Assembly (NCBI GenBank): GCA_024682255.1
Contig: GCA_024682255.1_4716.1
DNA: 64,000 nt
DNA from: a phage
Direction: 5' to 3' (one strand)
Positions 2,949-64,000 of the stretch are shown here, one piece after another. Under the pieces are notes generated by a model. That model saw only the letters and a program-made list of their open reading frames with translations, was not told the origin of the DNA and did no database searches. Within the stretch, counting starts at the first letter, position 1, and the number at the start of each line of letters is the position of its first letter. Made by a program: the position numbers and the translations under genes.

Positions 2949-4951
2949 AACGTGATTACATCCTCCGGTTTAGGTTCTTTACGCGGTAACAGCATGTAGT
3001 CGATCGGATGATCCGGCTTCATGGTTGGGATATAACTGTTCGGGTTTTGGAACGCATCCAGTTGCTCTTGGTGAGCGAACTTCATACTCAAGGAGCGCAT
3101 GTTCATGTTCTTCTTGAAGGTACTGAAGTATCGTGTTGTTCCCTGTTTCGGCATGCGATAATCTTTCGTGTGTGGCGAACGAATCATGCTGGCGTAGAGA
3201 ATAACATCGAGATGCGAAAGGTTCATTCGTAGACGCTGGGCACACAGACGATGCCAATAGTACAGCACGTTTGCAACTTCTTCCGGCGTTGCTTCGTCTT
3301 CCGAAAGGAATCCGGCACTGAAAGAACCTTTCCCGAATTTGAATTCACGTTCGATTTCTTTTGCGTATTCCATCATGTTTTTGTGGATTAACGGCATCTG
3401 GAATAACGTACGTGAATTGTCCCAATGTTTCAAGTCGAAAATCACAATCCCGTCAGACGTCACTTCCCAGCTATGGCGTTTAAGATAACGGATAAACGCT
3501 TTACTCGGTACAACAGGACGGCCGCAGAAATCGAAATTGACTTTGAGCTTACGATAGCTTTCATCTTTCCTGTCGTAAATCTCCATATCGCAAAGCGTCA
3601 TGTTAAACAGGCGTTGCGGTATCAGCGAACTGATTTCTTCCGCTTCCGCTACGTCGTACAACATGTTCGCAAGACCTAACTTCATCTTAATCAGCACGTG
3701 TTTACCTTTCAGCTCACGTGCGAGTTTGATGTCGTTCATGTTCTGGCTATAGCGAAGGATATGTTGATATTCCGGTGGGATTGGTGCTGTGGATACCGTT
3801 GACGAACCATCGTGGTGTTTGGTAGAAAGAATGTTCTGCGTTACCTGTTGCGAACAGGTGCGCGCTGCGCCATCGCCGACATTATCAGTCAATGCGAAGT
3901 TATGACTTAATTCACCGTAACACGTCGTGCATACCCCAGCAGGATCGGGATGATGGCAATAGTTAACGGAGCGCATGCGTACCGTCGTACCAATCAATTC
4001 TTTCATGTGTGGTTGTATCGCTACCAACGAACCATCATCACGAATAATGAATCGACCATGGAAGCCACGCAGGTCGGTCTCATCACGGATTGGCATCGGG
4101 ATGGTCTCTTTACTACCACAATCACCAGGATGGAGTCGTTGTACAACCGCTGTCGCTATCTGAAGTTCACGACCGAAATATTCAGACTTTTTAATCTGCT
4201 CTTTGTTGAACAGCAACGATTTCGCCGCAGAACGACTTTCTTTCAAGCTGTCAGGAAGAGAGATCAAACCAGCTGCGTATGACCGCATCACTGGGTCACG
4301 GAATATCTCGGAGTTAATATCAGTCAAGAATCCACGCATCCCAATACACTGCAGCACCTGTCCGATCGAAACGTGTTCGGTTCTTACCGCACGTGCGATA
4401 GGGTTTGCATGTAACGTTTTATCGGTGCTCAGTACCTTTGTCAGTTTCTTGTATGCGCTTTCAATGCCTTCGCGGGTGGGTTCCGCTTCGGCGATGATTT
4501 TCTTAACTTCGGGGTGTACGGTAATCTGATAAAAATCGTCTGCGCAAATCGTTGTTACGTATTCCTCCAACGCATACGTAAAGAAGTTATACACATTGTT
4601 AAACATATCGAACAGTGCTTTCCAGAGAACCTCACGATTCTCTTGTGGGTAAGCATACATGCATTGACGATACGCGGCGCTTTGCAACGCAACCGATGAA
4701 CCCGCTGTGAACTTGCGTTTATCAACCAGGTTCTCTTTTGTCAATGGTGTCTCAGGATACATGCGATGCACAGACCAGTGCATGTAACTAAAGAAAATGC
4801 GTCGCGCACGCAACTCATGAACGCCATCGTCCATCTCGATATACACACGGTCATTAGGCTGTGCCCACTCGAACACCTCATCAACCGGCCAATGCATAAG
4901 CTCGCGTGCCCTCACACGACGTTTCGTGGTGGTTGTCTGTGTTGTAATCAT
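2945..4951 (-). CDS. multisubunit RNA polymerase beta-prime-like subunit, C-terminal piece
   Basis: 668 aa; NYCHHPDPAGVCTTCYGEL matches the bacterial beta-prime C-terminal Zn-binding segment (E. coli SCDTDFGVCAHCYGRDL); ATGA overlap with helicase gene. Confidence 0.7.
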   Translation of the reverse strand: MITTQTTTTKRRVRARELMHWPVDEVFEWAQPNDRVYIEMDDGVHELRARRIFFSYMHWSVHRMYPETPLTKENLVDKRKFTAGSSVALQSAAYRQCMYAYPQENREVLWKALFDMFNNVYNFFTYALEEYVTTICADDFYQITVHPEVKKIIAEAEPTREGIESAYKKLTKVLSTDKTLHANPIARAVRTEHVSIGQVLQCIGMRGFLTDINSEIFRDPVMRSYAAGLISLPDSLKESRSAAKSLLFNKEQIKKSEYFGRELQIATAVVQRLHPGDCGSKETIPMPIRDETDLRGFHGRFIIRDDGSLVAIQPHMKELIGTTVRMRSVNYCHHPDPAGVCTTCYGELSHNFALTDNVGDGAARTCSQQVTQNILSTKHHDGSSTVSTAPIPPEYQHILRYSQNMNDIKLARELKGKHVLIKMKLGLANMLYDVAEAEEISSLIPQRLFNMTLCDMEIYDRKDESYRKLKVNFDFCGRPVVPSKAFIRYLKRHSWEVTSDGIVIFDLKHWDNSRTLFQMPLIHKNMMEYAKEIEREFKFGKGSFSAGFLSEDEATPEEVANVLYYWHRLCAQRLRMNLSHLDVILYASMIRSPHTKDYRMPKQGTTRYFSTFKKNMNMRSLSMKFAHQEQLDAFQNPNSYIPTMKPDHPIDYMLLPRKEPKPEDVITL

Positions 4952-6124: not shown

Positions 6125-6553
6125 TTAGCAATCGTTTAAAACTTTTTCGATACGGTGGTTGACAAGTTCATTGAATGACTCTTCAACTTGTTCAATGATT
6201 TCATCAACGTCGATATCTAATTGTTGGGGTTGGATAACATGCTCTTTCATGGTTTCCAGCCAGTATTCGGCTTTAACCATGACGTTAGCGACGTGTTCGA
6301 CCTGGCTGCGTATGTCGACGATCTGGCAGTCAGGATTGTTAATGTCGATGATGTGTCCGTGGTGGTTGATAAAACCTAGCTTATTTGATGCCCTTACCGC
6401 ATCACGAGTCAGTTCTTGCAAGATTAAATTATTGACGTAGTTCACTGCTACGGAACGATTTTCGTTATCACTCATACCAGGGATCCTCTTTAAGTCTTCA
6501 CATTCTAGTGTTAAGCAGTTAAAATAAACCGTTCCTTTAATCAGCATAAACAT
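6125..6553 (-). CDS. hypothetical protein (142 aa)
   Basis: ORF in minus-strand array. Confidence 0.5.
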   Translation of the reverse strand: MFMLIKGTVYFNCLTLECEDLKRIPGMSDNENRSVAVNYVNNLILQELTRDAVRASNKLGFINHHGHIIDINNPDCQIVDIRSQVEHVANVMVKAEYWLETMKEHVIQPQQLDIDVDEIIEQVEESFNELVNHRIEKVLNDC

Positions 6554-21043: not shown

Positions 21044-21268
21044 TTAGCAATGGTTGTTAGTTGCTTCTATTTCGTCAAGATACGGTTCTACGTCATCGCC
21101 CTCCACGAATTCGTTGAACCAACAGTCAATGGTAGAAATAACCGGTGACTGGTGTTCACATTTCTTAGATACCTTAAAAGGTACGTTATTATCCATCATA
21201 CCGAGTTCGGGTCGAAAACGCCCGAAATGTTTCGCAGTCCAAATGTCTGGGACGATATGGTTGTTCAT
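21044..21268 (-). CDS. RNA polymerase beta-prime N-terminal subunit, exon 3 (MNNHIVP...; 74 codons)
   Basis: MNNHIVPDIW...GMMDNN aligns with the segment immediately after the catalytic DGD in beta-prime (E. coli DGDQMAVHVPL...LMMSTNN; Rpb1 DGDEMNLHVP). Frame is closed by TAG 3 codons upstream of the annotated ATG, so it cannot be contiguous with exon 1. Proposed 3' splice site after G21269; alternative after G21281. Confidence 0.55.
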   Translation of the reverse strand: MNNHIVPDIWTAKHFGRFRPELGMMDNNVPFKVSKKCEHQSPVISTIDCWFNEFVEGDDVEPYLDEIEATNNHC

Positions 21269-21623
21269 CGTGGTGTTCAGCATGAGTCGCTACCTCATAC
21301 CCGCAGCTTTACCTGCAGCTTCCGGTGTTACCGGAATGTCCAGAATACATCTTATCCATATTCCAAATGGAACGTAGGACTTCCGCGCTGGATCTCGCTT
21401 GAGACCACGTATTCGTTGAACGTTCTCCTGAACGGAGCTTCGCTGCTGATCGAACATTGTCACGTACGGTAGGCGTCCCCGAAGGGATTGTCATTGAAGC
21501 CGCGTACATCCGCTACCTTGTTTCTACCTTATCGGTTCCTCTTACGAGGCGTAGCGGCCTTAGCCCTTCCCAGCAATTCACGGAATCCAAGCTCTTCCTT
21601 TCGGAAGGCAGGGCCTATGATTA
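21269..21623 (-). ncRNA. group I intron B (ORF-less, about 355 nt) in beta-prime gene
   Basis: Minus-strand core elements in canonical order: P GAATTGCTGGGAAG (21566-21579), Q GATCAGCAGCGAAGC (21437-21451; P4 TTGCTG/CAGCAG), R GTTCAACGAATACG (21408-21421), S AAGATGTATTCTGG (21340-21353; P7 GAATAC/GTATTC); ends in G. Its 5' guide (P1) pairing was not identified, so boundaries are provisional. Confidence 0.5.
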
Positions 21624-21636
21624 AGCGTCACCGTCG
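21624..21636 (-). CDS. RNA polymerase beta-prime N-terminal subunit, 13-nt mini-exon encoding (F)DGDA
   Basis: Minus-strand cgacggtgacgct lies 8 nt after the HNH stop; first 6 nt CGACGG pair with intron A guide CCGTCG (P10); joined to exon 1 it restores YNADF-DGD; genomic continuation is GCT TAA (stop), so a second splice is required. Confidence 0.5.
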
Positions 21637-23051
21637 CTGTAGTTTAATTTGGTCGAACGTATTCCAATTTCAATCCATGCCAATTACCGCCTTTACTAAT
21701 AGCGGTACTTATCGTAGTCGGATGTACTTTATGTTCTTCAGCAAGGGCGAATCTATCAGGATAGACTTTATGTGTACCATCCTCAAACACCACCTTTACT
21801 GGGAACCTTTGTAATCCACCAGTTTTTGGTCTAGGCTCTTTAGGAATATATTTACACTCGTTCACATCACCAGGATAATTCCTTGTCCACCATGCTTTCC
21901 AACCGTTTCTGGAAAACGTCTTATCTCCATGACATAAGCTATGGCTTAATGTCGCATAACTCACTCCCGCCATTGTTGCCGCCATTACGGTACTTTCCAT
22001 GTGGTACTTGTCTCCATCGGGCGATATTAAAACCAGCCCGCCGTAAATAACATACGACTTACCGACGTCTTCGGATGTGAAACCAACAAATTCCATTCCA
22101 TGGGTAGCCGCATCGTAATACTTCATCAACGGCCATTGTCGTGTTGTACGGAACCATTTTGAAATCTGGGTGTGTGGGATACCGTAACACTTGGCTGCAT
22201 CACGCATGCTGTAATGTTCGGTTATCTCACCAGTTCTCAAATCCTTTATCCATACGGTTTTAGCTTTCCAGTTCAAGCCGGTACGATAGGCATGGTACGT
22301 ATTTTGGGATTGACTTGTCCATTCAAGATTATCCAGGCGGTTGTTATCTTTAACTCCATCAAGATGGTTACCTACTAACATTGATCCCTCAGGAAGCATA
22401 GGTTTTTCACGAAAGGTTGATAGAACAACATGATGAGCTGCTATATCTCTACCTTCATGTCTAACCCTTACATATCCGAATATGTTAGTTTTTCCTACTT
22501 CCTCTCCAGTATAGGCATCTATAATGACACCCTCCTCGGAAGCGGCAAGTCCTGGATAATCTTTACAGTGGTAAAATCCTGGGAATTTTGTCTCTCTAAG
22601 TTTCATCTTCTCTCCGTTATCGGCCAACAGAGAGAAAACGTTCCTCGGAGGCCGACGTTTTCAAATTAAACTATGTTATCGACTATATCTTCATCCTCAT
22701 TGCGAGGAGACTCTCGTTTGGGTTTGTGTTTAACAAAGCCTACTCTACTCAACATCGCGTCTTTCGATAGTCTGTGAGCACACATCTTAACGAATATTCG
22801 TAGATTCCTACAGGCAGGTGAATATTCTTGTTGAGATGCTTCGCTGCGGATTATTCCCGTCCTACCTCTTTTACCATACCCAGGTCATTACGCTGGCCCT
22901 CATCTATGTCACCATGATGAGTTGGTGTGTAGTCCGATTACAGAAACTTCCCGTCAATTAGAGAGTTTTAACTATGCTCCTGTTACCAGGAACCCGACTC
23001 CGACGGCATCAATAAATCAACGTAAGTTATTGATTTAATTGAAGAAATTGG
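21637..23051 (-). mobile_element. group I intron A (about 1.4 kb) carrying an HNH homing endonuclease gene, inserted in the beta-prime NADFDGD codons
   Basis: Minus strand: guide CCGTCG-GAGTCGG (23006-22994) pairs with exon 1 end CCGACTT (P1, U-G at splice site) and exon 2 start CGACGG (P10); P2 hairpin TCCTGGTAACAGGA; P TAATTGACGGGAAG (22947-22960); Q AATCCGCAGC (22843-22852; P4 with bulged A); R GCTCACAGACTAT (22767-22779); S AAGATATAGTC (22681-22691; P7 GACTA/TAGTC); HEG in 3' extension; terminal G at 21637. Confidence 0.8.
21644..22627 (-). CDS. HNH homing endonuclease (intron-encoded)
   Basis: 327-aa ORF; HNH motif HHVVL...VGNHLDGVKDNNRLDNLEW; sits between intron A core and 3' splice site; annotated start is TTG, first ATG 21 nt downstream (MKLRETK...). 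Confidence 0.8.
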   Translation of the reverse strand: MADNGEKMKLRETKFPGFYHCKDYPGLAASEEGVIIDAYTGEEVGKTNIFGYVRVRHEGRDIAAHHVVLSTFREKPMLPEGSMLVGNHLDGVKDNNRLDNLEWTSQSQNTYHAYRTGLNWKAKTVWIKDLRTGEITEHYSMRDAAKCYGIPHTQISKWFRTTRQWPLMKYYDAATHGMEFVGFTSEDVGKSYVIYGGLVLISPDGDKYHMESTVMAATMAGVSYATLSHSLCHGDKTFSRNGWKAWWTRNYPGDVNECKYIPKEPRPKTGGLQRFPVKVVFEDGTHKVYPDRFALAEEHKVHPTTISTAISKGGNWHGLKLEYVRPN

Positions 23052-24307
23052 AAGTCGGCATTGTAGCCTTTCAAGATCATCACGCTTAACCCGATGGTGT
23101 TATCCTGCGGATCGCGTTTAACCTTGGTGATTTCAAGACATTGGTTACTGCTTCGGTCAAGTGATGGGTTTCGAACAAAGCCGCACACAATCCCATCGAA
23201 CGGTGTATCAGCAATAAGCTCATCATGCAGCTCACTCATCATCGGATGATAATTACGGACATGTTCCGCAACGAACGCACGTGCTGCTCTTGGTGAATAA
23301 CCACGATGGAATAACTTGGATTGGATATGTTCTTTATTGGTTAAAGTAAATGGCGCGTATGGGAAATGCAGATGATAATAACGATGGTTCGCTGTTATCG
23401 AACTGATTACGGTACGCGTGGTGAATGGATGTAATGTACCTAATATGTTTTTACGTGTGATACCTTTCTTCTTACCGATGAACTCATCGAAAATAGCTGC
23501 GTGGTATTGCAGCAGCTTCAATTGCACTTTCGCCATCCAGTTTTCTTTCTTTCTGGCGCTCAAAGGTGTTGTTGGATGATAGATGCTATTCAGTGTACCA
23601 ATAGCATCGATCGCACCTTCCATTTTGCTATCCGCATAACGACCGGTTGGCGTATTCTCGATAACGAACATCATGGCTGCAGGAAAGCTGATATACTGAC
23701 TGAAGAACTTATCACGATGGATACGGATGAATTCTCGTAGCGTGTCAACTTTCTCCGTGTTCTTCGGTCCACGTAACGTCGGTCCTTTATACAAGATCTC
23801 CATGATGCGATCGAAGTTCTGTATAAAGCTATTTACGCCGCGACGTATCCCGAATACATCGAATTGCTGCTCCAGATAGTTCTTGAGTTCGATGGGTCGT
23901 TTTACATTTGGACGGTAACTGGCATCAATGAGCCACGTCATCGTTTCAAAGCTTTTGATATTCAACTCGCTTGCCAGCACGAGATGGACCAACGGGTTAA
24001 TGAACGCATCGATTCCTTCAGGAACACGCGCCCACACCGTCGAACGAATCTCTTGTTCTGCTGGGTAGGTTACAACCGTTTTACAGTTCGGACACACCGT
24101 GCCGAGCAGCTCACCACGATTGTAGAAACCGCAACCACATTGTGGTGTGATATCCAACGTATCGCTGGAGTAAACACGGGTGATGAAACTGTTTAATTTC
24201 TTCTTCTCTTCGACGACTTTTGTATCGTAATCATTCAACAAAATCGGCGTAAAAGGAAGTTCTGCGAGCTGTCTATCGAAACTCACGATATCGAGCATGA
24301 TGGCCAT
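23052..24307 (-). CDS. RNA polymerase beta-prime N-terminal subunit, exon 1
   Basis: ATG at 24307 with AGGAGA RBS; Zn finger CGCGFYNRGELLGTVCPNCK (like beta-prime Cys70-88); RNPSLDRSSNQ ~ NRAPTLHRLGIQ; ORF runs ...MILKGYNADF then QFLQLNQ-stop, truncating the universal NADFDGD motif; exon taken to end after the TT of the Phe codon (23052). Confidence 0.75.
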
Positions 24308-24399: not shown

Positions 24400-26295
24400 T
24401 TAGAACAGGTTGAATGCCCCACCCATGTTGTTAACGCCAACATTCGGACGATCGCTACGTGCGTAGATGTTACCGGAGATGTTACCCAGACCACGAGCAC
24501 GTGCTGCCATGTTACCACGAACAGCGGTACCTGCCAGGTGCTGGATGTTCTCAGGACGGATGGTGAAGCCAGCATCAGCCGCAGCTTCGATCAGCGCCTG
24601 CAGTGCTAACGGATCGAAGTCGTAACGCATTGCCCAGCCGGTTTGTTCCCAGCTACCAGACAGAACACGATCAATGATTTCGTGACGAGCGACAACACGC
24701 TGAGACATCGTCATATCGGTACGGTCGAAGCTGTCTTCCCAAGCTTCTACGGTATCCGGGTTAGTGATGTTCATCATGTACAGATCGTCCATATCACGAA
24801 TATCGTGACGGTGACCATCCTGGTGGTTGTAGTAACCCAGCGGGATACGGTTACCGGTAGCGTAGACCAGCGGTTGGCCGTATTGATATTTCTTGCTGAA
24901 GCAACCCAGGGTAGTATCATCGAATGCACGGAAGAGGGCTTTGTAACCTTCGGAGATTTCTTGAACTTTACCGTCAACGTTGCCCGTATAGATCTTCTCA
25001 GCCGCCGGGATCATACGCAGCAGCCAGCTATACTCGCCTTCTTCCGGTACGTCGATAGAAATCAGCAGAGACGGATACAGAACCTGTTGCAGGAACTTGT
25101 AAATCTGCTCGTTGGTTTGCGTAGACAGATCCAGCGGTGCAGTCACTTCAGGATCCAGCACCATCGCCAGAGCACCTGGGTTATGCGGACCAATACCACG
25201 AGCCGCGTTGCTGATTAAAGACTGTGCCCATGCCATGCCGCTGTTCAGCGTAGCGATGGTACCAATCAGACCCAGCACGAAGCTGTTCGGTGTGAACGCA
25301 TCCAGCTCCAGCGGGTAAACGCTGGTCATCACGTAACGCGGCTGGTATTGTACAGTCGGCGGTACCGGATAGCCGTTAACCAGAACAGGGCCTTGGTTGA
25401 AGGTCGGGTTCTGCGGGCTGTAGGTCAGGTCAATGTAACCGGTGGTGGCGACCAGACGCTGTTGACTATCGTAATCGCTCATCGCTTGACGGATGCGGTT
25501 AGAGATAGTTACAGTGATGTCAGAACGCACAGGGTTACCAACAATATCGCTGTCCTGCATACCGCTGGTGTTGTACTGAACGCTGCTGATTGGCTGATCG
25601 CTTGCCATCATGCCCAGGTTGAACTGCGGCAGACCCAGTTTATCACCGAGACGGATTTCGATCGCGGTTTGGATTGCGTTATCTGCAGCAGACAGCAGGG
25701 TGGTTGCCAGATGCGCAGATTCAGCGGTGATTTCATTGGTCACCACAGCCAGACCAGCGATACGAACAGTACCGTTAGACTTACCGCCAATAGCTGAGTA
25801 CATTGCCGCCATGACTTCGTTGATGAACGTACCGTTCAGGTTATCAACCCAGGTACGCGGTACCAGAATGTTACCATGCGGACCTTGTTCTTCACGACGC
25901 GGCAGCGGAGCCAGACCAGCAACCAGCGGCAGGACGTAACCGAAGAAGTGGTTATGATCACCAACTTTTGCACCGCTCATAACAACCAGGGTCGGATACG
26001 GTACGCTGTACTGGTTCGGGTCAACCGCAACAAAGATGAAGTCGTCTTTGAACTGGGTATCTTCCAGATATTTCTCCATCAGACGACGGAGATTCAGTAC
26101 CTGCTCGGAGCCGGTATTACGGCTGATACGACGGCTCAGTGTACGGTTGATCGTACGCATCGTATGAGTTACTTTAGGACGGTCGGCAAAATCTGCAGCG
26201 GTTTCCAGCGCCTCATCAGCACGTTGTGCGGTGCGGGTTTCAGCTGCACGAATTTCTACATTATCGTTACCGTTATTACGTACGTCTAAGCCCAT
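24400..26295 (-). CDS. abundant early protein; candidate phage-nucleus shell protein (chimallin-like)
   Basis: 631 aa; ATG with AAGAGGA RBS; strongly biased codon usage (CGT/GGT/CTG/AAC) typical of highly expressed genes; TATATTAC early-promoter motif about 72 nt upstream; immediately upstream of beta-prime N gene. Assignment rests on size and context only. Confidence 0.45.
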   Translation of the reverse strand: MGLDVRNNGNDNVEIRAAETRTAQRADEALETAADFADRPKVTHTMRTINRTLSRRISRNTGSEQVLNLRRLMEKYLEDTQFKDDFIFVAVDPNQYSVPYPTLVVMSGAKVGDHNHFFGYVLPLVAGLAPLPRREEQGPHGNILVPRTWVDNLNGTFINEVMAAMYSAIGGKSNGTVRIAGLAVVTNEITAESAHLATTLLSAADNAIQTAIEIRLGDKLGLPQFNLGMMASDQPISSVQYNTSGMQDSDIVGNPVRSDITVTISNRIRQAMSDYDSQQRLVATTGYIDLTYSPQNPTFNQGPVLVNGYPVPPTVQYQPRYVMTSVYPLELDAFTPNSFVLGLIGTIATLNSGMAWAQSLISNAARGIGPHNPGALAMVLDPEVTAPLDLSTQTNEQIYKFLQQVLYPSLLISIDVPEEGEYSWLLRMIPAAEKIYTGNVDGKVQEISEGYKALFRAFDDTTLGCFSKKYQYGQPLVYATGNRIPLGYYNHQDGHRHDIRDMDDLYMMNITNPDTVEAWEDSFDRTDMTMSQRVVARHEIIDRVLSGSWEQTGWAMRYDFDPLALQALIEAAADAGFTIRPENIQHLAGTAVRGNMAARARGLGNISGNIYARSDRPNVGVNNMGGAFNLF

Positions 26296-60618: not shown

Positions 60619-61769
60619 TTATTTAGCGTCGTTAAAGTAAATATCAACAGCTCGTTCCGTTGCGTAGAGGAGACCAAGATTCACAGTCCCAACCACTTCC
60701 GGTGAACCGATGATACGGTTAGCGATACTGGTGCCACTGAAGATAGCATCAAGGGTGTGCCCGTCTTCGGTTTTGTTCACACCATGACCCACGGAAGAGA
60801 CAACGGATTTCGCTTGAGCTGCGAAGGTACCTTTATCACCCATCCCCGCACCAAGGTCGTAACGCATGAAAATACGGATGGCGATCTGGTTCTCGCCTAA
60901 CGGATTACCGTCTATTCTCACGTTACTGTTATTGATACGCCCCGTTGTTGCTTCGTTGAGTTTCAGTTCCTTAACGCGTTTAGCTCGTGCTTTATCCGCT
61001 TCACCGACGAGCGCTGCCATGGTTTCACTCATATCCTCAATCTGAGCGCGGTACAGTACATCGATCTGTACAACTTCACCATGAACGTCAGCACGTGGGT
61101 TATACTGACTCATACGACGTAATGCTTCAACGGCTTCCTGACTCTCATCACTCAGATCGGTTGCAATCGGTTCTTCCAGTGTTGCAAGGATCGTTCGAGG
61201 TTCAACGTGATCGCCGATTTTCACGAGACCGCGAATGTTGAGATGGGCGTCAACGATAAGCGTACGGCTCTTAATCGATGGTGTTACGAGACGATCGGCA
61301 AGATTGTCGAAGATATACGAACTGTCCTCGTGGGTCTCTGGAATATCCAGAATACCGACAAGAGACAGCACGCCTGCGCGCCAAACAACCTGACCTGGGT
61401 TCCACCAGTCGCGTTTAAAATAAAGACGATGGAAAACCACCACATCCTGATCCTTAACGCGATCCCCGACTTTATAATCGGTAATGAGATCGTGAGGATA
61501 ATACTTACCTGGTCCTTTCCCGATTATCGTACCGAGCTGGAAAACCTCTTCCCCTAACTCTGGATCGTCGTACTGTATCGTCAGCGCAGTTTTGGTGACC
61601 TTCTTGACAACACCATCGCCTTGGGCGGCAGCTGCGAAGAGTTTACCAACACGATGCGCGATAACAGTCTCACCGCCGGTGCGCCACGGTTGTACATCGT
61701 AACCTTCAGCAGCAATCATGCGGTTGTGCTGTATACCTATAAATACCAATCTCTTGGGCGAATTTAGTT
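60619..61769 (-). CDS. RNA polymerase beta-like subunit (second beta gene), exon 2 / middle segment
   Basis: VGILDIPETHEDSSYIFDNL ~ E. coli [33 protein letters not shown] ~ SGTVIDVQVFTRD; IAIRIFMRYDLGAGMGDKGTF...SVVS ~ [29 protein letters not shown]. No ATG at ORF start (annotated start is TTG), frame open back to 61770; 5' boundary approximate. Confidence 0.6.
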
Positions 61770-62261
61770 CTTATTCAACATAATCGTACTATTACCAGAA
61801 TAAGACTGAGATTAGATTGTTCAGATAAGGTCGTTGCTTGAAACGATCGTTTCAGCGCTCATCTTATCCCGGAGGCGACGATAGGCACATCACCTCCCGC
61901 TTGCGCTCTCACGCAAGAGCAGACTATATCACATCTCGTTTCAAACGGTGCTTCTTCAGCACCTCAACGAGAGTTCACTTCTTCCCAGCGCATCCAGCGC
62001 CATTCTCTTATCCAAGGAGAATGCCTCACTCGAGGGGTACAGGGGGATGAATCCCTTAGTCGTTGAACCTTTACCTTAGAACGCTTCACAGCGATCCTTA
62101 GGTACTTGGCTGCGGATTGTCCTTAAGCTATTATCTGTTTTTATACCATACCGTCTTTCTTTTCAGAATCCGTTTTGGTCGATAACAGCGATGGATGTCT
62201 TCGCAATTCAGTGAATCTCATCTACATGTCGCCACATAGACGGACCCTGCTATTAAAAGCG
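61770..62261 (-). ncRNA. group I intron C (ORF-less, about 0.5 kb) in beta gene
   Basis: Minus-strand core elements in order: P TGAATTGCGAAGAC (62197-62210), Q AATCCGCAGC (62109-62118), R GTTCAACGACTAAG (62055-62068), S GATATAGTC (61922-61930; P7 GACTA/TAGTC); sits between two beta-homologous ORFs that are consecutive in the beta alignment; exact splice sites not resolved. Confidence 0.6.
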
Positions 62262-64000
62262 TTAATCATCTCTATCAGCAGCAGGTACTGCAAGTGCTGA
62301 TGTACTCATTATTGACGAGCTACCATCCGTTTTCTCGTCGTAGGGTTTCGTTTCACCGTATACAGACACAATGTTTGCGTTAGGTGCAAGGTAAGCAGAG
62401 ATACCTACGTCCCCACTATCCTTCGTACCTTCGGATACAACACCAATGTCCGACTTGTCGTATTCACGATCGCGTGCGCGTCGAAGCGATGTCTTTGAAC
62501 GACCCCCAATACCGGTCATCGTCGCTTCTTCACCCTGCTTGATATCCAGCATCGGGTTGGTTTCATCGATCACGATGGAAGCACTGTCGTCGAGAATTTG
62601 GTTCCAGACACTTACCGGACTGATTGAGATTTTCTGGCGATTTCCTTGACTGCTGTTCTCATTCTGACGAATAGCGCCAACCAGATCCTTATACACCAAT
62701 TCAGCGAACTTATCGTACGTTTTAAAACGTTGGTAGTTCACATCGTTCGTGTTAGGAGCCCAATCATCCAGAAGCAATTCAACAGCACGCAGTAACAACA
62801 TGGCGAAATCGGTAGGTTCTCCCATGTTCTGCAGCAACATACGGCTTACCGGATCAACGAAAAGACGCTCCATGAGTTCAAGTTCGCGTAAATGACGAAC
62901 CTTAAGTCCGGCACCATCGACAACGTTAAAATAGATATCTCGATTGTCAAAAGCGCCGCGAGCGTAACCAATGTAGTTACGGTATTCGTTAAACCCACCC
63001 AGCAACAACGTCGTCATGCGGTCGTCTTTACTGAAGATCAAACTTTCGTCGTCAAAGCTCACCGCGAATTCATCGGGTGCTAGACCCATACGAGAACCGC
63101 GAGGTACCGTACGATAGTTTGCTTTAAGATGTTCTAATAACGGGGTGAGTCCGCCCAGATAACTTAGAACAACACCGACCGGAATACGTACACCCATGAA
63201 TTCAAGATCGGCAGCTTCGATCGGCATCTTGGCCGCATTGATGCCGAAGAAATCAGGGAACGTCCCTACAGGTGTTGGTGTTTGTCCTGACTGACAGATA
63301 TAGAGCTGATTGCGTTTATCGATTGCTAAGAATTCACCCAGCGTGTTACGCGCAAACGTCAGGAGCCCTTCGGCTAACTGTTCGTTGAACCGATCTTCCC
63401 CAATGAACTCCGGTAGCGTTTTTATATCGAGACGTATATCCCAATCAGCAAATTGGATTTGGGTATAATTGCGCGCAAGCACAGCGAAGTAGTACGGAAC
63501 TTTGACAGCTGGATCAAAGACGTTACCACGTTTTAACGTGGTTAAGGGTGAGGACTTATCGTAATACATCGCTGTAAGTTGACGTGTTAGCCAACGACCC
63601 GCATTATTAACGACGCGCTCTGAACGTTTAACAAACACCTTACCGTAGGCGGTACTCAATGCAACTTCGGATGACGATACCTTTCTAATAGGTTTATCAA
63701 CACGTTGTTTACGCATCCGGTATTTGATGCCGTTAACGACATAAATGCCGTCCTTACGAACCTTCGGCAACATCACCGGGAACGTGGTCGGGACACCGCC
63801 TACAGGAGCCAGTTTAATCGTGATGACTTGATAATCCCCCATCACGTCAACGACATCTTCAACTTTATATCCCGTGACAGGGTAACCTGCCTGCTGTACC
63901 GCAACAACGGCAGCTGCGATGTCCTTTTGCATTACGTGTTCGACGTAATGTTTATCCCACACCGCGAGCGTCGATTTACATAAGCTCTTGTCGACGATAA
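62262..64000 (-). CDS. RNA polymerase beta-like subunit (second beta gene), exon 1; 5' end beyond window
   Basis: TGIGGRSKTSLRRARDREYDKSDIGVVSEGTKDSGDVGISAYLAPNANIVSVYGE ~ E. coli beta [52 protein letters not shown]; frame open to window edge (annotated start is GTG). Confidence 0.7.
   Translation of the reverse strand, partial: IVDKSLCKSTLAVWDKHYVEHVMQKDIAAAVVAVQQAGYPVTGYKVEDVVDVMGDYQVITIKLAPVGGVPTTFPVMLPKVRKDGIYVVNGIKYRMRKQRVDKPIRKVSSSEVALSTAYGKVFVKRSERVVNNAGRWLTRQLTAMYYDKSSPLTTLKRGNVFDPAVKVPYYFAVLARNYTQIQFADWDIRLDIKTLPEFIGEDRFNEQLAEGLLTFARNTLGEFLAIDKRNQLYICQSGQTPTPVGTFPDFFGINAAKMPIEAADLEFMGVRIPVGVVLSYLGGLTPLLEHLKANYRTVPRGSRMGLAPDEFAVSFDDESLIFSKDDRMTTLLLGGFNEYRNYIGYARGAFDNRDIYFNVVDGAGLKVRHLRELELMERLFVDPVSRMLLQNMGEPTDFAMLLLRAVELLLDDWAPNTNDVNYQRFKTYDKFAELVYKDLVGAIRQNENSSQGNRQKISISPVSVWNQILDDSASIVIDETNPMLDIKQGEEATMTGIGGRSKTSLRRARDREYDKSDIGVVSEGTKDSGDVGISAYLAPNANIVSVYGETKPYDEKTDGSSSIMSTSALAVPAADRDD

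What the first reader, a model, noticed from the sequence alone, without database searches (positions are those of the whole stretch)
21269..21636. 13-nt mini-exon encoding DGD(A), followed by a second ORF-less group I intron
After intron A the frame reads GAC GGT GAC GCT TAA, so DGD-A is followed by a stop. The next beta-prime-homologous sequence (MNNHIVP..., matching the post-DGD segment) starts 355 nt further on, after a G, and its frame is closed 3 codons upstream of its ATG. The intervening 355 nt carries a second full set of P, Q, R and S elements with compensatory P4 and P7 pairings. Splicing 21624 to 21268 gives NADFDGDAMNNHIVP, a precise match in spacing to DGDQMAVHVP (bacteria) and DGDEMNLHVP (Rpb1). 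Two introns 13 nt apart within one catalytic loop would be unusual. I could not find intron B's P1 guide, so its 5' boundary is provisional.
Basis: partly seen in the sequence, partly recalled or inferred. Interest (0 to 1): 0.8.

Follow-up and report, generated by a model that had tools for sequence, protein, structure and literature searches.

The report
Second hidden intron, 13-base exon

Summary
The gene lies on the minus strand. It is the phiKZ gp55 homologue, the beta'-N subunit of the non-virion RNA polymerase, in a 97% relative of E. coli phage Goslar.

- **Layout:** exon 1 is 24307..23052. Intron A is 23051..21637 (375-nt ribozyme plus HNH endonuclease cassette). A 13-nt exon, CGACGGUGACGCU, is 21636..21624. 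Intron B is 21623..21269 (355 nt, no ORF). Exon 3 is 21268..21044.
- **Product:** the spliced 497-aa protein aligns without a gap to uninterrupted homologues and to the solved phiKZ gp55 chain across NADFDGDA|MNNHIVPD.
- **Intron B structure:** B scores only 21 bits on Rfam. Across eleven family members its full group I fold holds, with 97% of cells paired and 32 of 104 pairs carrying compensatory changes.
- **Empty sites:** three related metagenomic contigs, two of them ~239 kb, lack B and read GAC GCR ATG AAC contiguously.
- **Relatives:** other relatives carry three introns with two 13-nt exons, or a B-like intron 18 nt upstream.

Splicing itself has not been shown experimentally. B is a new member of a known kind, in an unusually dense arrangement for a phage.

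The parts
23052..24307 (-). Exon 1 of the nvRNAP beta'-N gene (phiKZ gp55 homologue). It ends ...AAU GCC GAC UU, i.e. N A D and the first two bases of the F codon.
   Evidence: ORF list. Alignment to uninterrupted homologues and to 7ogp_A. Last exon base U23052.
21637..23051 (-). Intron A, a 1415-nt group I intron. It consists of a 375-nt ribozyme core (23051..22677), a 1036-nt endonuclease cassette (22676..21641) and a terminal CAG with omega-G at 21637.
   Evidence: Rfam RF00028 54.8 bits at 23041..22660. The ORF-less 376-nt version in L007 aligns to the core and the last 4 nt. Window and Goslar diverge query position 1726 (about window 22675) and re-align from query 2763, i.e. window 21638, two bases before the first base of the mini-exon.
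22994..23007 (-). Internal guide sequence of intron A. GCCGUCG forms P10 with the 3' exon CGACGGU. GAGUCGG forms P1 with the 5' exon CCGACUU, with U.G at the splice site.
   Evidence: Sequence. Two-state covariation with the exon in relatives: CCGACUU/GAGUCGG against CAGAUUU/GGAUCUG.
21644..22627 (-). Homing endonuclease ORF of intron A (327 aa, HNH_3, I-HmuI-like).
   Evidence: Pfam HNH_3 25.7 bits. Only 29% aa identity to the Goslar counterpart.
21624..21636 (-). 13-nt mini-exon CGACGGUGACGCU. It supplies the last base of the F codon plus D G D A of the catalytic NADFDGD loop.
   Evidence: Among relatives its codons differ only synonymously: GGU/GGG/GGC, GAC/GAU, GCU/GCC/GCG/GCA.
21269..21623 (-). 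Intron B, a 355-nt ORF-less group I intron with an IA-like fold. Elements are P1, P2, P3, P4, a long P5 extension, P6, P7, P7.1, P8, P9, P9.1 and P9.2. Omega-G is at 21269.
   Evidence: MFE fold recovers P1-P6 and P9-P9.2. Covariation. Weak Rfam match. Homology to high-scoring introns. Absent from L130, L133 and L132.
21613..21626 (-). P1 of intron B. GCU|UA (21626..21622) pairs with UAGGC (21617..21613), with U21624.G21615 at the cleavage site. UCAU (21620..21617) is the candidate P10 guide for the exon-3 bases AUGA.
   Evidence: In one search the two intron-side pairs covary (UA to AU, AU to CG). The same GCU 5' context is found at the second site used by the B-like intron.
21342..21421 (-). 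Catalytic core 3' half of intron B. It holds the R element with P7 5' strand GAAUA (21414..21410), the P7.1 hairpin, P3 3' strand, P8, and the S element with P7 3' strand UAUUC.
   Evidence: P7 occurs as GAAUA/UAUUC, GAGUA/UACUC and GAUCA/UGAUC in the family. The G-C pair of the guanosine-binding site is invariant.
21280..21300 (-). P9.2 hairpin of intron B (AUGAG-GUAGCGA-CUCAU). It contains the GAGG and the upstream AUG (MLNTT) that make exon 3 look like an independent gene.
   Evidence: The hairpin is kept by compensatory changes (ACGAA/UUCGU in L006_B, AUGGA/ACCAU in i1). These changes destroy the GAGG and the AUG.
21044..21268 (-). Exon 3, MNNHIVPD...NNHC, 74 codons plus stop. Its orthologue in Goslar RefSeq is annotated as the 79-aa hypothetical protein gp185.

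Best explanation
Positions 21269..21623 (minus strand) are a second, ORF-less group I intron (intron B). It interrupts the beta'-N subunit gene of the phage's non-virion RNA polymerase between the Ala and Met codons that follow the catalytic NADFDGD motif.

Its neighbour, intron A, carries an HNH homing endonuclease and ends 13 nt upstream. The pre-mRNA therefore contains a 13-nt exon, C GAC GGU GAC GCU.

Proposed mechanism:
1. Each ribozyme folds on its own core.
2. Intron A selects its splice sites with a 14-nt guide. P1 pairs with CCGACUU, and P10 pairs with the first 7 nt of the mini-exon.
3. Intron B uses a short P1 (GCU|UA with UAGGC, U.G at the cleavage site) on the last 3 nt of the mini-exon. 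It uses a short P10 (UCAU with AUGA) on exon 3.
4. Two guanosine-initiated transesterifications per intron join exon 1, the mini-exon and exon 3 into one 497-codon ORF.

Shown here: the anatomy, the conserved and covarying fold, the exact colinearity of the product, and the existence of intron-less alleles. Inferred: catalysis itself, the order of splicing, and spread of B at the DNA level by co-conversion with A's endonuclease.
For: 1. **Colinearity.** The spliced product aligns without a gap across both junctions to Eowyn, Simmy50 and 201phi2-1 homologues. It also aligns to residues 41-495 of phiKZ gp55, PDB 7OGP chain A.
2. **Fold.** The MFE fold gives P1, P2, P3, P4, P5 extension, P6, P9, P9.1 and P9.2, with z = -2.65. 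On 11 distinct family members, 97.3% of cells pair and 32 of 104 pairs change on both sides. Slid controls give 1-3 such pairs, and 0 of 500 shuffles reach the observed value (5-sequence version). The hand-added P7 pseudoknot has three pair states and an invariant G-C.
3. **Family.** An nhmmer profile of B detects the cores of introns in IMG/VR contigs. Those introns score 81-105 bits on RF00028.
4. **Empty sites.** L130 and L133 (from ~239-kb contigs) and L132 read GACGG(U/C/G)GACGC(G/A)AUGAACAAC contiguously. B is therefore a discrete 355-nt insertion exactly between GCN and AUG.
5. **Splice-site rules.** U at -1 and G at omega fit only this junction. The Ala codon is GCU in 7 of 8 alleles with B and GCG or GCA in the 3 alleles without it.
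6. **Obligate splicing in relatives.** In L006 the DFDGDA codons sit on an 18-nt exon between a B-like intron and the B orthologue. In L007-type genomes they sit on two 13-nt exons between three introns. Those exons can only be expressed by splicing.
7. **Intron A boundaries.** A's P1 covaries with the exon, and its P10 pairs with the mini-exon.
Against: - No transcript, protein or ribozyme assay is available, so splicing is inferred.
- B fails the Rfam gathering score (21.3 against 50 bits), and whole-window scans do not report it.
- P1 pairs only 3 exon bases and P10 only 4, which is short.
- In the window, Goslar and L007-type alleles, a UAA follows DGDA directly. A GAGG lies 8 nt before an in-frame AUG upstream of exon 3, so two separate polypeptides are formally possible.
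- The L006 orthologue has C, not U, at the 5' splice site.
- The covariation comes from about three lineages (B, L006_B, i1), and the helices other than P7 were derived from the same sequences by RNAalifold.
Confidence: 0.88

Rival explanations
1. Split gene. Intron B is an inactive relic that now serves as an intergenic spacer. After intron A splices, translation stops at the UAA right after DGDA. A second 79- or 74-aa polypeptide (MLNTTMNNH... or MNNH...) starts from its own ribosome-binding site, and the two pieces assemble in the polymerase.
For: - The stop codon follows DGDA immediately. GAGG lies 8 nt upstream of the in-frame AUG at 21283.
- RefSeq annotates the Goslar orthologue as separate genes.
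- Jumbo-phage RNAP subunits are already split into several polypeptides (established knowledge; PDB 7OGP).
Against: - Compensatory changes preserve the whole ribozyme, including P7 and the guanosine-binding G-C pair. That indicates selection for catalysis, not for a spacer.
- The GAGG and the upstream AUG lie inside the P9.2 hairpin. In L006_B they are replaced, with pairing kept, and in L136_B the GAGG is replaced by GAAG. The UAA is also absent in L006_B.
- Alleles without B encode one continuous chain, as do all uninterrupted homologues.
- A break one residue after the Mg-binding aspartates has no precedent among the homologues retrieved.
Confidence: 0.06
2. One composite intervening sequence. 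The whole stretch 23051..21269 is removed as a unit, by exon skipping or as a twintron-like element, and the 13 nt are not part of the mRNA.
For: Exon skipping by neighbouring group I introns was reported for phage Twort orf142. This rests on my memory of Landthaler and Shub 1999; the paper was not held.
Against: - The product would be ...NADF|MNNH..., lacking the DGD aspartates that every homologue keeps.
- Intron A's P10 guide pairs with the mini-exon, not with exon 3.
- The mini-exon's codons change only synonymously among relatives.
- Sites A and B are occupied independently in different genomes.
Confidence: 0.02
3. Chance resemblance. The 355 nt is ordinary non-coding spacer that happens to resemble P, Q, R and S.
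For: The Rfam score is far below threshold, and the hit vanishes in a whole-window scan.
Against: - 32 pairs carry double changes, against 1-3 in slid controls.
- nhmmer E-values down to 4e-14 link it to introns that score 81-105 bits.
- The element is precisely present or absent between relatives.
Confidence: 0.01

Closest known systems
Phage IA-type group I introns (T4 td, nrdB and nrdD/sunY; Twort; SPO1 family), Rfam RF00028
   Same: - Same core: P3-P8 and P4-P6 domains, the P7 pseudoknot, a hairpin between P7 and P3' (P7.1), U.G at the 5' splice site and a terminal G.
- Insertion falls in codons for a conserved active site.
- Intron B begins with an in-frame UAA, as T4 td does (from my own knowledge).
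- Intron A carries its ORF at the 3' end, as sunY does (from my own knowledge).
   Different: - B has a ~115-nt P5 extension and a very short P1, and scores only 21 bits on RF00028.
- It has no ORF.
- It lies 13 nt from another intron.
PhiPA3 gp210 intron in the virion RNAP beta gene (Birkholz et al. 2024, PMC11620839) and the intron in PhiPA3 nvRNAP gp65-66 (PMC11077065)
   Same: - A nucleus-forming jumbo phage.
- A group I intron with an HNH endonuclease placed at catalytic-residue codons of a multisubunit RNAP gene.
- The window's other intron (61900..62266) sits right after two Asp codons, like the gp210 intron.
   Different: - A different subunit (beta'-N, the gp55 homologue) and a different site.
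- Two introns here, and up to three in relatives, rather than one.
- B is ORF-less.
- No competition or nicking data exist for this locus.
Phage Twort orf142 with three group I introns and exon skipping (Landthaler and Shub 1999; cited in PMC11878797, recalled from memory)
   Same: Several small ORF-less group I introns lie in one phage gene. This raises the problem of correct pairing of neighbouring splice sites.
   Different: - I could not read the paper, so exon sizes were not compared.
- Here the exons are 13 nt. They are almost fully used by the upstream intron's P10 and the downstream intron's P1.
Collaborative homing of an ORF-less intron with a neighbouring endonuclease gene (cyanophage psbA, Zeng, Bonocora and Shub 2009; T4 mobE/I-TevIII, PMC2790892)
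   Same: An intron without its own endonuclease sits beside an endonuclease gene. Cleavage by that endonuclease and co-conversion could carry the ORF-less intron along.
   Different: - Here the helper endonuclease sits inside the adjacent intron, 13 nt away.
- Co-mobilisation is inferred only from co-occurrence: all 6 alleles in which A was detected also carry B, and L129 has the same spacing.
Mitochondrial micro-exons between group I/II introns (as small as 3 nt or 1 nt; PMC8971849, PMC5436844)
   Same: Very short exons are flanked by self-splicing-type introns and are routinely missed by gene finders.
   Different: Those are organelle genes whose splicing is protein-assisted. This is a virulent phage of E. 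coli.

Membership tests
Group I intron (intron B, 21269..21623) | Conserved core helices P3, P4, P6 and P8, supported by base pairing across homologues | tested here: met
   P3 7/7 and P4 6/6 pairs are kept in 11 sequences. P6, P7.1, P8, P9 and P9.2 show changes on both sides. Overall 97.3% of cells pair.
Group I intron (intron B, 21269..21623) | P7 pseudoknot formed by the R and S elements, with the G-C pair of the guanosine-binding site | tested here: met
   P7 occurs as GAAUA/UAUUC, GAGUA/UACUC and GAUCA/UGAUC. Pair 223-297 is G-C in all 11 sequences.
Group I intron (intron B, 21269..21623) | P1 formed by the 5' exon end and an internal guide, with U.G at the cleavage site | tested here: met
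   - GCU|UA pairs with UAGGC. U.G is present in 10 of 11 sequences and C-G in L006_B. The intron-side pairs covary.
- Weak point: only 3 exon bases pair.
Group I intron (intron B, 21269..21623) | Terminal guanosine (omega-G) at the 3' splice site | tested here: met
   G21269 precedes AUGAAC. G is present at that position in all 11 family members.
Group I intron (intron B, 21269..21623) | Score at or above the Rfam RF00028 gathering threshold (50 bits) | tested here: not met
   - The window scores 21.3 bits. Orthologues score 28 and 26.4 bits. The gathering and whole-window E-value scans do not report B.
- The alignment loses score on the P5 insertion and places P1 wrongly.
- nhmmer-detected homologues do reach 81-105 bits.
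Group I intron (intron B, 21269..21623) | Precise removal restores a reading frame colinear with intron-less alleles | tested here: met
   (protein). (L130, L133 and L132 have the empty site GACGCR|AUGAAC).
Group I intron (intron B, 21269..21623) | Guanosine-dependent self-splicing in vitro or in vivo | not testable with these tools
   No transcript data or assay is available here.
Mobile (endonuclease-encoding) group I intron | An ORF inside the intron encoding a homing endonuclease | tested here: not met
   - Intron B has only 57- and 66-aa mechanical ORFs with no Pfam match.
- Intron A does encode an HNH_3 protein.
Multisubunit RNAP beta' subunit, phiKZ gp55-type (the host gene) | An NADFDGD metal-binding loop and the flanking double-psi barrel segment in one chain | tested here: met
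   - The spliced product matches 7ogp_A over residues 21-476 at E = 1e-74.
- Pfam RNA_pol_Rpb1_2 scores 36.9 bits over 371-428, spanning both junctions.

The most novel reading that the evidence does not exclude
The about 35 nt that encode KGYNADFDGDAM are a stacking hot spot for ribozymes.

- Three intron families (A, B, C) occupy four sites in Goslar-like phages, and a fifth site is used in an Erwinia phage.
- Up to three introns sit in one allele, separated by 13-nt exons. Each of these exons is almost entirely taken up by the upstream intron's P10 and the downstream intron's P1.
- This would imply ordered or interdependent splicing.
- ORF-less B and C would be carried by co-conversion with whichever neighbour currently holds the fast-diverging HNH endonuclease.
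- The B family would have moved 18 nt between two sites that share the 5' context AYGCU, by reverse splicing rather than by endonuclease homing.
Probability: 0.3. Interest if true: 0.7.

Novelty: new member of a known kind. Interest (0 to 1): 0.55.

Why it matters
Goslar is a working model for nucleus-forming jumbo phages. Its RefSeq record splits the catalytic beta' subunit of the non-virion RNA polymerase into a truncated "RNA polymerase beta subunit" (gp247) and a 79-aa "hypothetical protein" (gp185), and it misses the second intron. Knock-down, proteomic and structural work on this polymerase needs the 497-aa gene model.

More generally, a functional-looking group I intron scores 21 bits on the standard model and disappears in routine scans. 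Intron counts in phage genomes are therefore underestimates.

The set of natural alleles found here covers several intron combinations at one 35-nt stretch: one, two or three introns, with or without endonuclease, and empty sites. It offers a ready-made system for three questions:
- How do adjacent ribozymes avoid exon skipping across 13-nt exons?
- How do ORF-less introns persist next to an endonuclease-bearing neighbour?
- Do group I introns move to nearby ectopic sites?

Tried and rejected
- **Rfam scans.** The gathering scan and the whole-window E-value scan do not report B. Only a 2.4-kb local scan gives 21.3 bits.
- **Rfam's P1 placements.** For B, that alignment places P1 inside the endonuclease ORF (21710..21680). 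I rejected this in favour of the GCU|UA/UAGGC hairpin. For A, I rejected Rfam's P1 (the AAAUCAA/UUGAUUU hairpin, which would put C at the cleavage site and break the frame). I prefer the exon-guide pairing that covaries.
- **Shifting B's junctions.** A shift of +1 would give DGDALNN, closer to homologues, but puts A at omega. A shift of -1 puts C at both -1 and omega. A 5' site after GAU in L006 would delete or add residues. All were rejected.
- **BLAST in phages.** Megablast found only Goslar. Distant blastn of B found only ~45-nt core matches.
- **Alignment.** MAFFT could not align intron C with the B family in the 5' two thirds, so C was left out of the covariation set.
- **Covariance model.** I did not build one, because a 367-position model would exceed the calibration limit. 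I used nhmmer instead.
- **Literature.** Searches found no description of the Goslar double intron or of micro-exons in phages. The Goslar genome paper does not mention introns. The Twort paper was not held.
- **Tandem introns elsewhere.** Tandem introns in a capsid-like gene of L026 have a ~60-70-nt exon between them, so they are not a micro-exon precedent.

Full report
**What is there.** The feature lies on the minus strand. The window is a 97% relative of Escherichia phage vB_EcoM_Goslar. The gene lies just downstream, on the minus strand, of the nuclear-shell (chimallin) gene at 24400..26295, annotated as such in Goslar. It is the homologue of phiKZ gp55, the N-terminal beta' subunit of the non-virion RNA polymerase.

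On the minus strand, exon 1 (24307..23052) ends ...AAU GCC GAC UU. Rfam finds a group I intron at 23041..22660 with 54.8 bits. A 327-aa HNH_3 endonuclease ORF follows at 22627..21644. Seven bases after its stop the sequence reads ACUACAG|C GAC GGU GAC GCU|UAA UCA UAG. Then 355 nt later, after G21269, it reads AUG AAC AAC CAU AUC GUC CCA.

**The junctions.** Joining U23052 to 21636..21624 to 21268 gives a 497-codon ORF.
- Its product aligns with no gap across both junctions to uninterrupted homologues from Klebsiella phage Eowyn, Erwinia phage Simmy50 and Pseudomonas phage 201phi2-1. NADFDGDA-MNNHIVPD lines up with NADFDGDALGGLLILD, NADFDGDELNVMLQLD and NADFDGDQLNMTLLPD.
- It also aligns in one stretch to residues 41-495 of phiKZ gp55 in the solved polymerase, 7ogp_A, at E = 1e-74.
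- Pfam RNA_pol_Rpb1_2 matches residues 371-428, which span both junctions.

**Intron A fixes the start of the mini-exon.** Forty-five bases into intron A lies GCCGUCG-GAGUCGG (23007..22994). Its 3' half pairs with the last seven bases of exon 1, CCGACUU, with U.G at the cleavage site. Its 5' half pairs with CGACGGU, the first seven bases of the mini-exon.

In relatives whose exon reads CAGAUUU, the guide reads GGAUCUG. That is two compensatory double changes. An ORF-less 376-nt form of A in L007 aligns to the window's first 375 nt and last 4 nt. The endonuclease cassette (22676..21641) is therefore an insertion just before the terminal CAG. Window and Goslar, otherwise 97% identical, diverge from about window 22675 and re-align two bases before the mini-exon's first base.

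**Intron B is a real group I intron.**
- Rfam gives only 21.3 bits (E = 0.015 in a 2.4-kb scan) and nothing in whole-window scans. A pipeline would not see it. RefSeq annotates the Goslar exon 3 as hypothetical protein gp185.
- The minimum-energy fold nevertheless yields P1 (GCU|UA with UAGGC), P2, P3 (UUCCGUG/CGCGGAA), P4 (UGCUGG/UCAGCA), a ~115-nt P5 extension, P6, a hairpin between P7 and P3' (P7.1, the IA hallmark), P9, P9.1 and P9.2, at z = -2.65. P8 and the P7.1 hairpin were confirmed by the consensus fold.
- Scans of IMG/VR and of metagenome contigs returned further copies. Together they give eleven distinct sequences in three lineages: B itself, a 91.5% orthologue in L006, and a 72% B-like intron, i1.
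- On that alignment, 97.3% of cells pair and 32 of 104 pairs change on both sides. Partners slid by 1-3 columns give 1-3 such pairs, and no shuffle of 500 reaches the observed values (five-sequence version).
- P7 appears as GAAUA/UAUUC, GAGUA/UACUC and GAUCA/UGAUC, with the guanosine-site G-C pair invariant.
- Caveats: all helices except P7 were derived from these sequences with RNAalifold, and the changes come from about three lineages.
- Independently, an nhmmer profile of the family detects the cores of introns in other viral contigs. Those introns score 81-105 bits on RF00028.

**Empty sites.** Relatives differ in which sites are occupied.

| Genome(s) | Sites occupied |
|---|---|
| Window, Goslar | A with endonuclease, plus B |
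| L007, L131, L135, L136, and by identical spacing L129 (A's boundaries were not extracted there) | Third intron C after AAA GGG U, a 13-nt exon AUAAUGCAGAUUU, ORF-less A, the 13-nt exon, and B |
| L006 | i1 after AAC GCU, an 18-nt exon GACUUUGACGGUGAUGCC, and B |
| L130, L133 (from contigs of 239,899 and 238,169 nt) | i1 only; read GAC UUU GAC GGY GAC GCR AUG AAC AAC |
| L132 | C only, with an endonuclease in its P1 loop; reads AAU GCU GAU UUC GAC GGG GAC GCG AUG AAC |

B is therefore a discrete 355-nt element, present or absent exactly between the Ala and Met codons. Among all alleles the mini-exon codons differ only synonymously. The Ala codon is GCU in seven of eight alleles with B (GCC in L006) but GCG or GCA in the three without it. 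That pattern is what the U.G rule predicts. In L006 and L007-type genomes the DFDGD codons sit on 13- or 18-nt exons flanked by introns on both sides, so they can only be expressed by splicing.

**The split-gene rival.** In the window a UAA follows DGDA, and GAGG lies 8 nt before an in-frame AUG (MLNTT...). Two polypeptides are therefore conceivable.

That GAGG and AUG lie inside the P9.2 hairpin (AUGAG-GUAGCGA-CUCAU). The L006 orthologue has ACGAA-GUAGCGA-UUCGU and i1 has AUGGA/ACCAU or AUGAA/UUCAU. Pairing is kept while the signals are lost. L006_B also lacks the UAA. Selection has acted on the RNA fold, not on translation signals. I give this rival about 6%.

Removal of A, the mini-exon and B as one unit would delete the catalytic aspartates. 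It is also contradicted by A's P10 and by the synonymous-only variation of the mini-exon. I give that rival about 2%.

**How it most likely works.**
1. The pre-mRNA (24307 to 21044) carries two independent ribozymes.
2. Each is removed by the usual two guanosine-initiated transesterifications.
3. The mini-exon is used at its 5' end (7 nt) by A's P10 and at its 3' end (3 nt) by B's P1, with 3 nt between.
4. In L007-type alleles the upstream 13-nt exon is likewise split between C's P10 (UAAUG with CAUUA) and A's P1.

The anatomy, covariation and colinearity are shown. Catalysis, the order of events and any dependence on proteins are inferred.

At the DNA level, all six alleles in which A was detected also carry B, and L129 shares their spacing. 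The HNH endonucleases of the window (in A), Goslar (in A) and L132 (in C) share only 27-34% identity. This suggests endonuclease turnover, with B hitch-hiking by co-conversion; that is an inference. The B-like i1 sits 18 nt upstream at a site with the same 5' context (AAYGCU| against GAYGCU|), which fits the 3-bp exon part of P1. That is compatible with ectopic movement by reverse splicing, which is speculation.

**Comparison with what is known.**
- Group I introns with HNH endonucleases at catalytic codons of chimallivirus RNAP genes are known. Examples are PhiPA3 gp210 in the virion RNAP (PMC11620839) and an intron in PhiPA3 nvRNAP gp65-66 (PMC11077065).
- Several introns in one phage gene are known from Twort (cited in PMC11878797), and dense intron loads from Jug phages (PMC12880540).
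- Exons of 1-3 nt are known in mitochondria (PMC8971849, PMC5436844).
- I found no description of the Goslar double intron, of intron B, or of such micro-exons in a phage.
- Erwinia phage pEa_SNUABM_54 has yet another intron, with an HNH ORF, after DFDG^D. The motif is therefore a recurrent target.

**Verdict.** B is a new, unannotated member of a known kind. Its arrangement is unusually dense for a phage, and the annotation of a model phage needs correcting. Interest is 0.55.

Noticed in passing
window 61900..62266 (-), flanking ORFs 62262..63962 (-) and 60619..61749 (-): A third group I intron in the window (RF00028, 56.3 bits), with no ORF. It interrupts a large gene right after ...PAADRDD (GAU GAU|UAA CGC...). 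This recalls the PhiPA3 gp210 intron site, 'immediately after two conserved aspartates' of an RNAP beta subunit. The 3' splice site and the exon-2 start were not determined.
   Followed up: partly
window 21644..22627 (-) vs L001 4759..5766: The endonuclease inside intron A is only 29% identical to Goslar's, although the flanking intron core and exons are ~97% identical. The 3' tails of the two cassettes also differ right up to the splice site. The endonuclease in intron C of L132 is 34% identical. This looks like endonuclease cassettes being swapped among neighbouring introns.
   Followed up: partly
L007 5244..6365 (also L129, L131, L135, L136): Goslar-like contigs with three group I introns (C 365 nt, ORF-less A 376 nt, B 355 nt) separated by two 13-nt exons, AUAAUGCAGAUUU and CGACGG(U/G)GA(C/U)GCU. 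None of the three encodes an endonuclease.
   Followed up: yes
L006 5252..5976; L130 4312..4661; L133 3429..3778: A 350-nt intron 72% identical to B sits 18 nt upstream (after AAY GCU, between N-A and D-F). It occurs alone (L130, L133) or together with B (L006). Both sites share the 5' exon bases AYGCU.
   Followed up: yes
L006 5617..5633: The B orthologue in L006 has C rather than U at the 5' splice site (GAU GCC|AGAGCCAUGGC), which gives C-G instead of the near-universal U.G. Whether this allele splices well is unknown.
   Followed up: no
L128 (Erwinia phage pEa_SNUABM_54) 3690..5118: The gp55 homologue of a distant Erwinia jumbo phage is interrupted after DFDG^D (GACGGU| with guide GCCGUC). 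The interrupting element is a group I intron (47 bits, below threshold) carrying an HNH ORF. The exons are annotated as separate hypothetical proteins.
   Followed up: partly
L001 (Goslar NC_048170) 3094..4365 and 6143..6382: RefSeq annotates exon 1 plus read-through as 'RNA polymerase beta subunit' (gp247) and exon 3 plus five upstream codons as 'hypothetical protein' (gp185). Only intron A is marked as Intron_gpI.
   Followed up: yes
L026 1205..1759; L031 363..1590; L098 1970..2611: Unrelated IMG/VR contigs fetched through the P3-P4 16-mer carry two or three tandem high-scoring group I introns. In L026 they interrupt a capsid-like gene, with a ~60-70-nt exon between them.
   Followed up: partly
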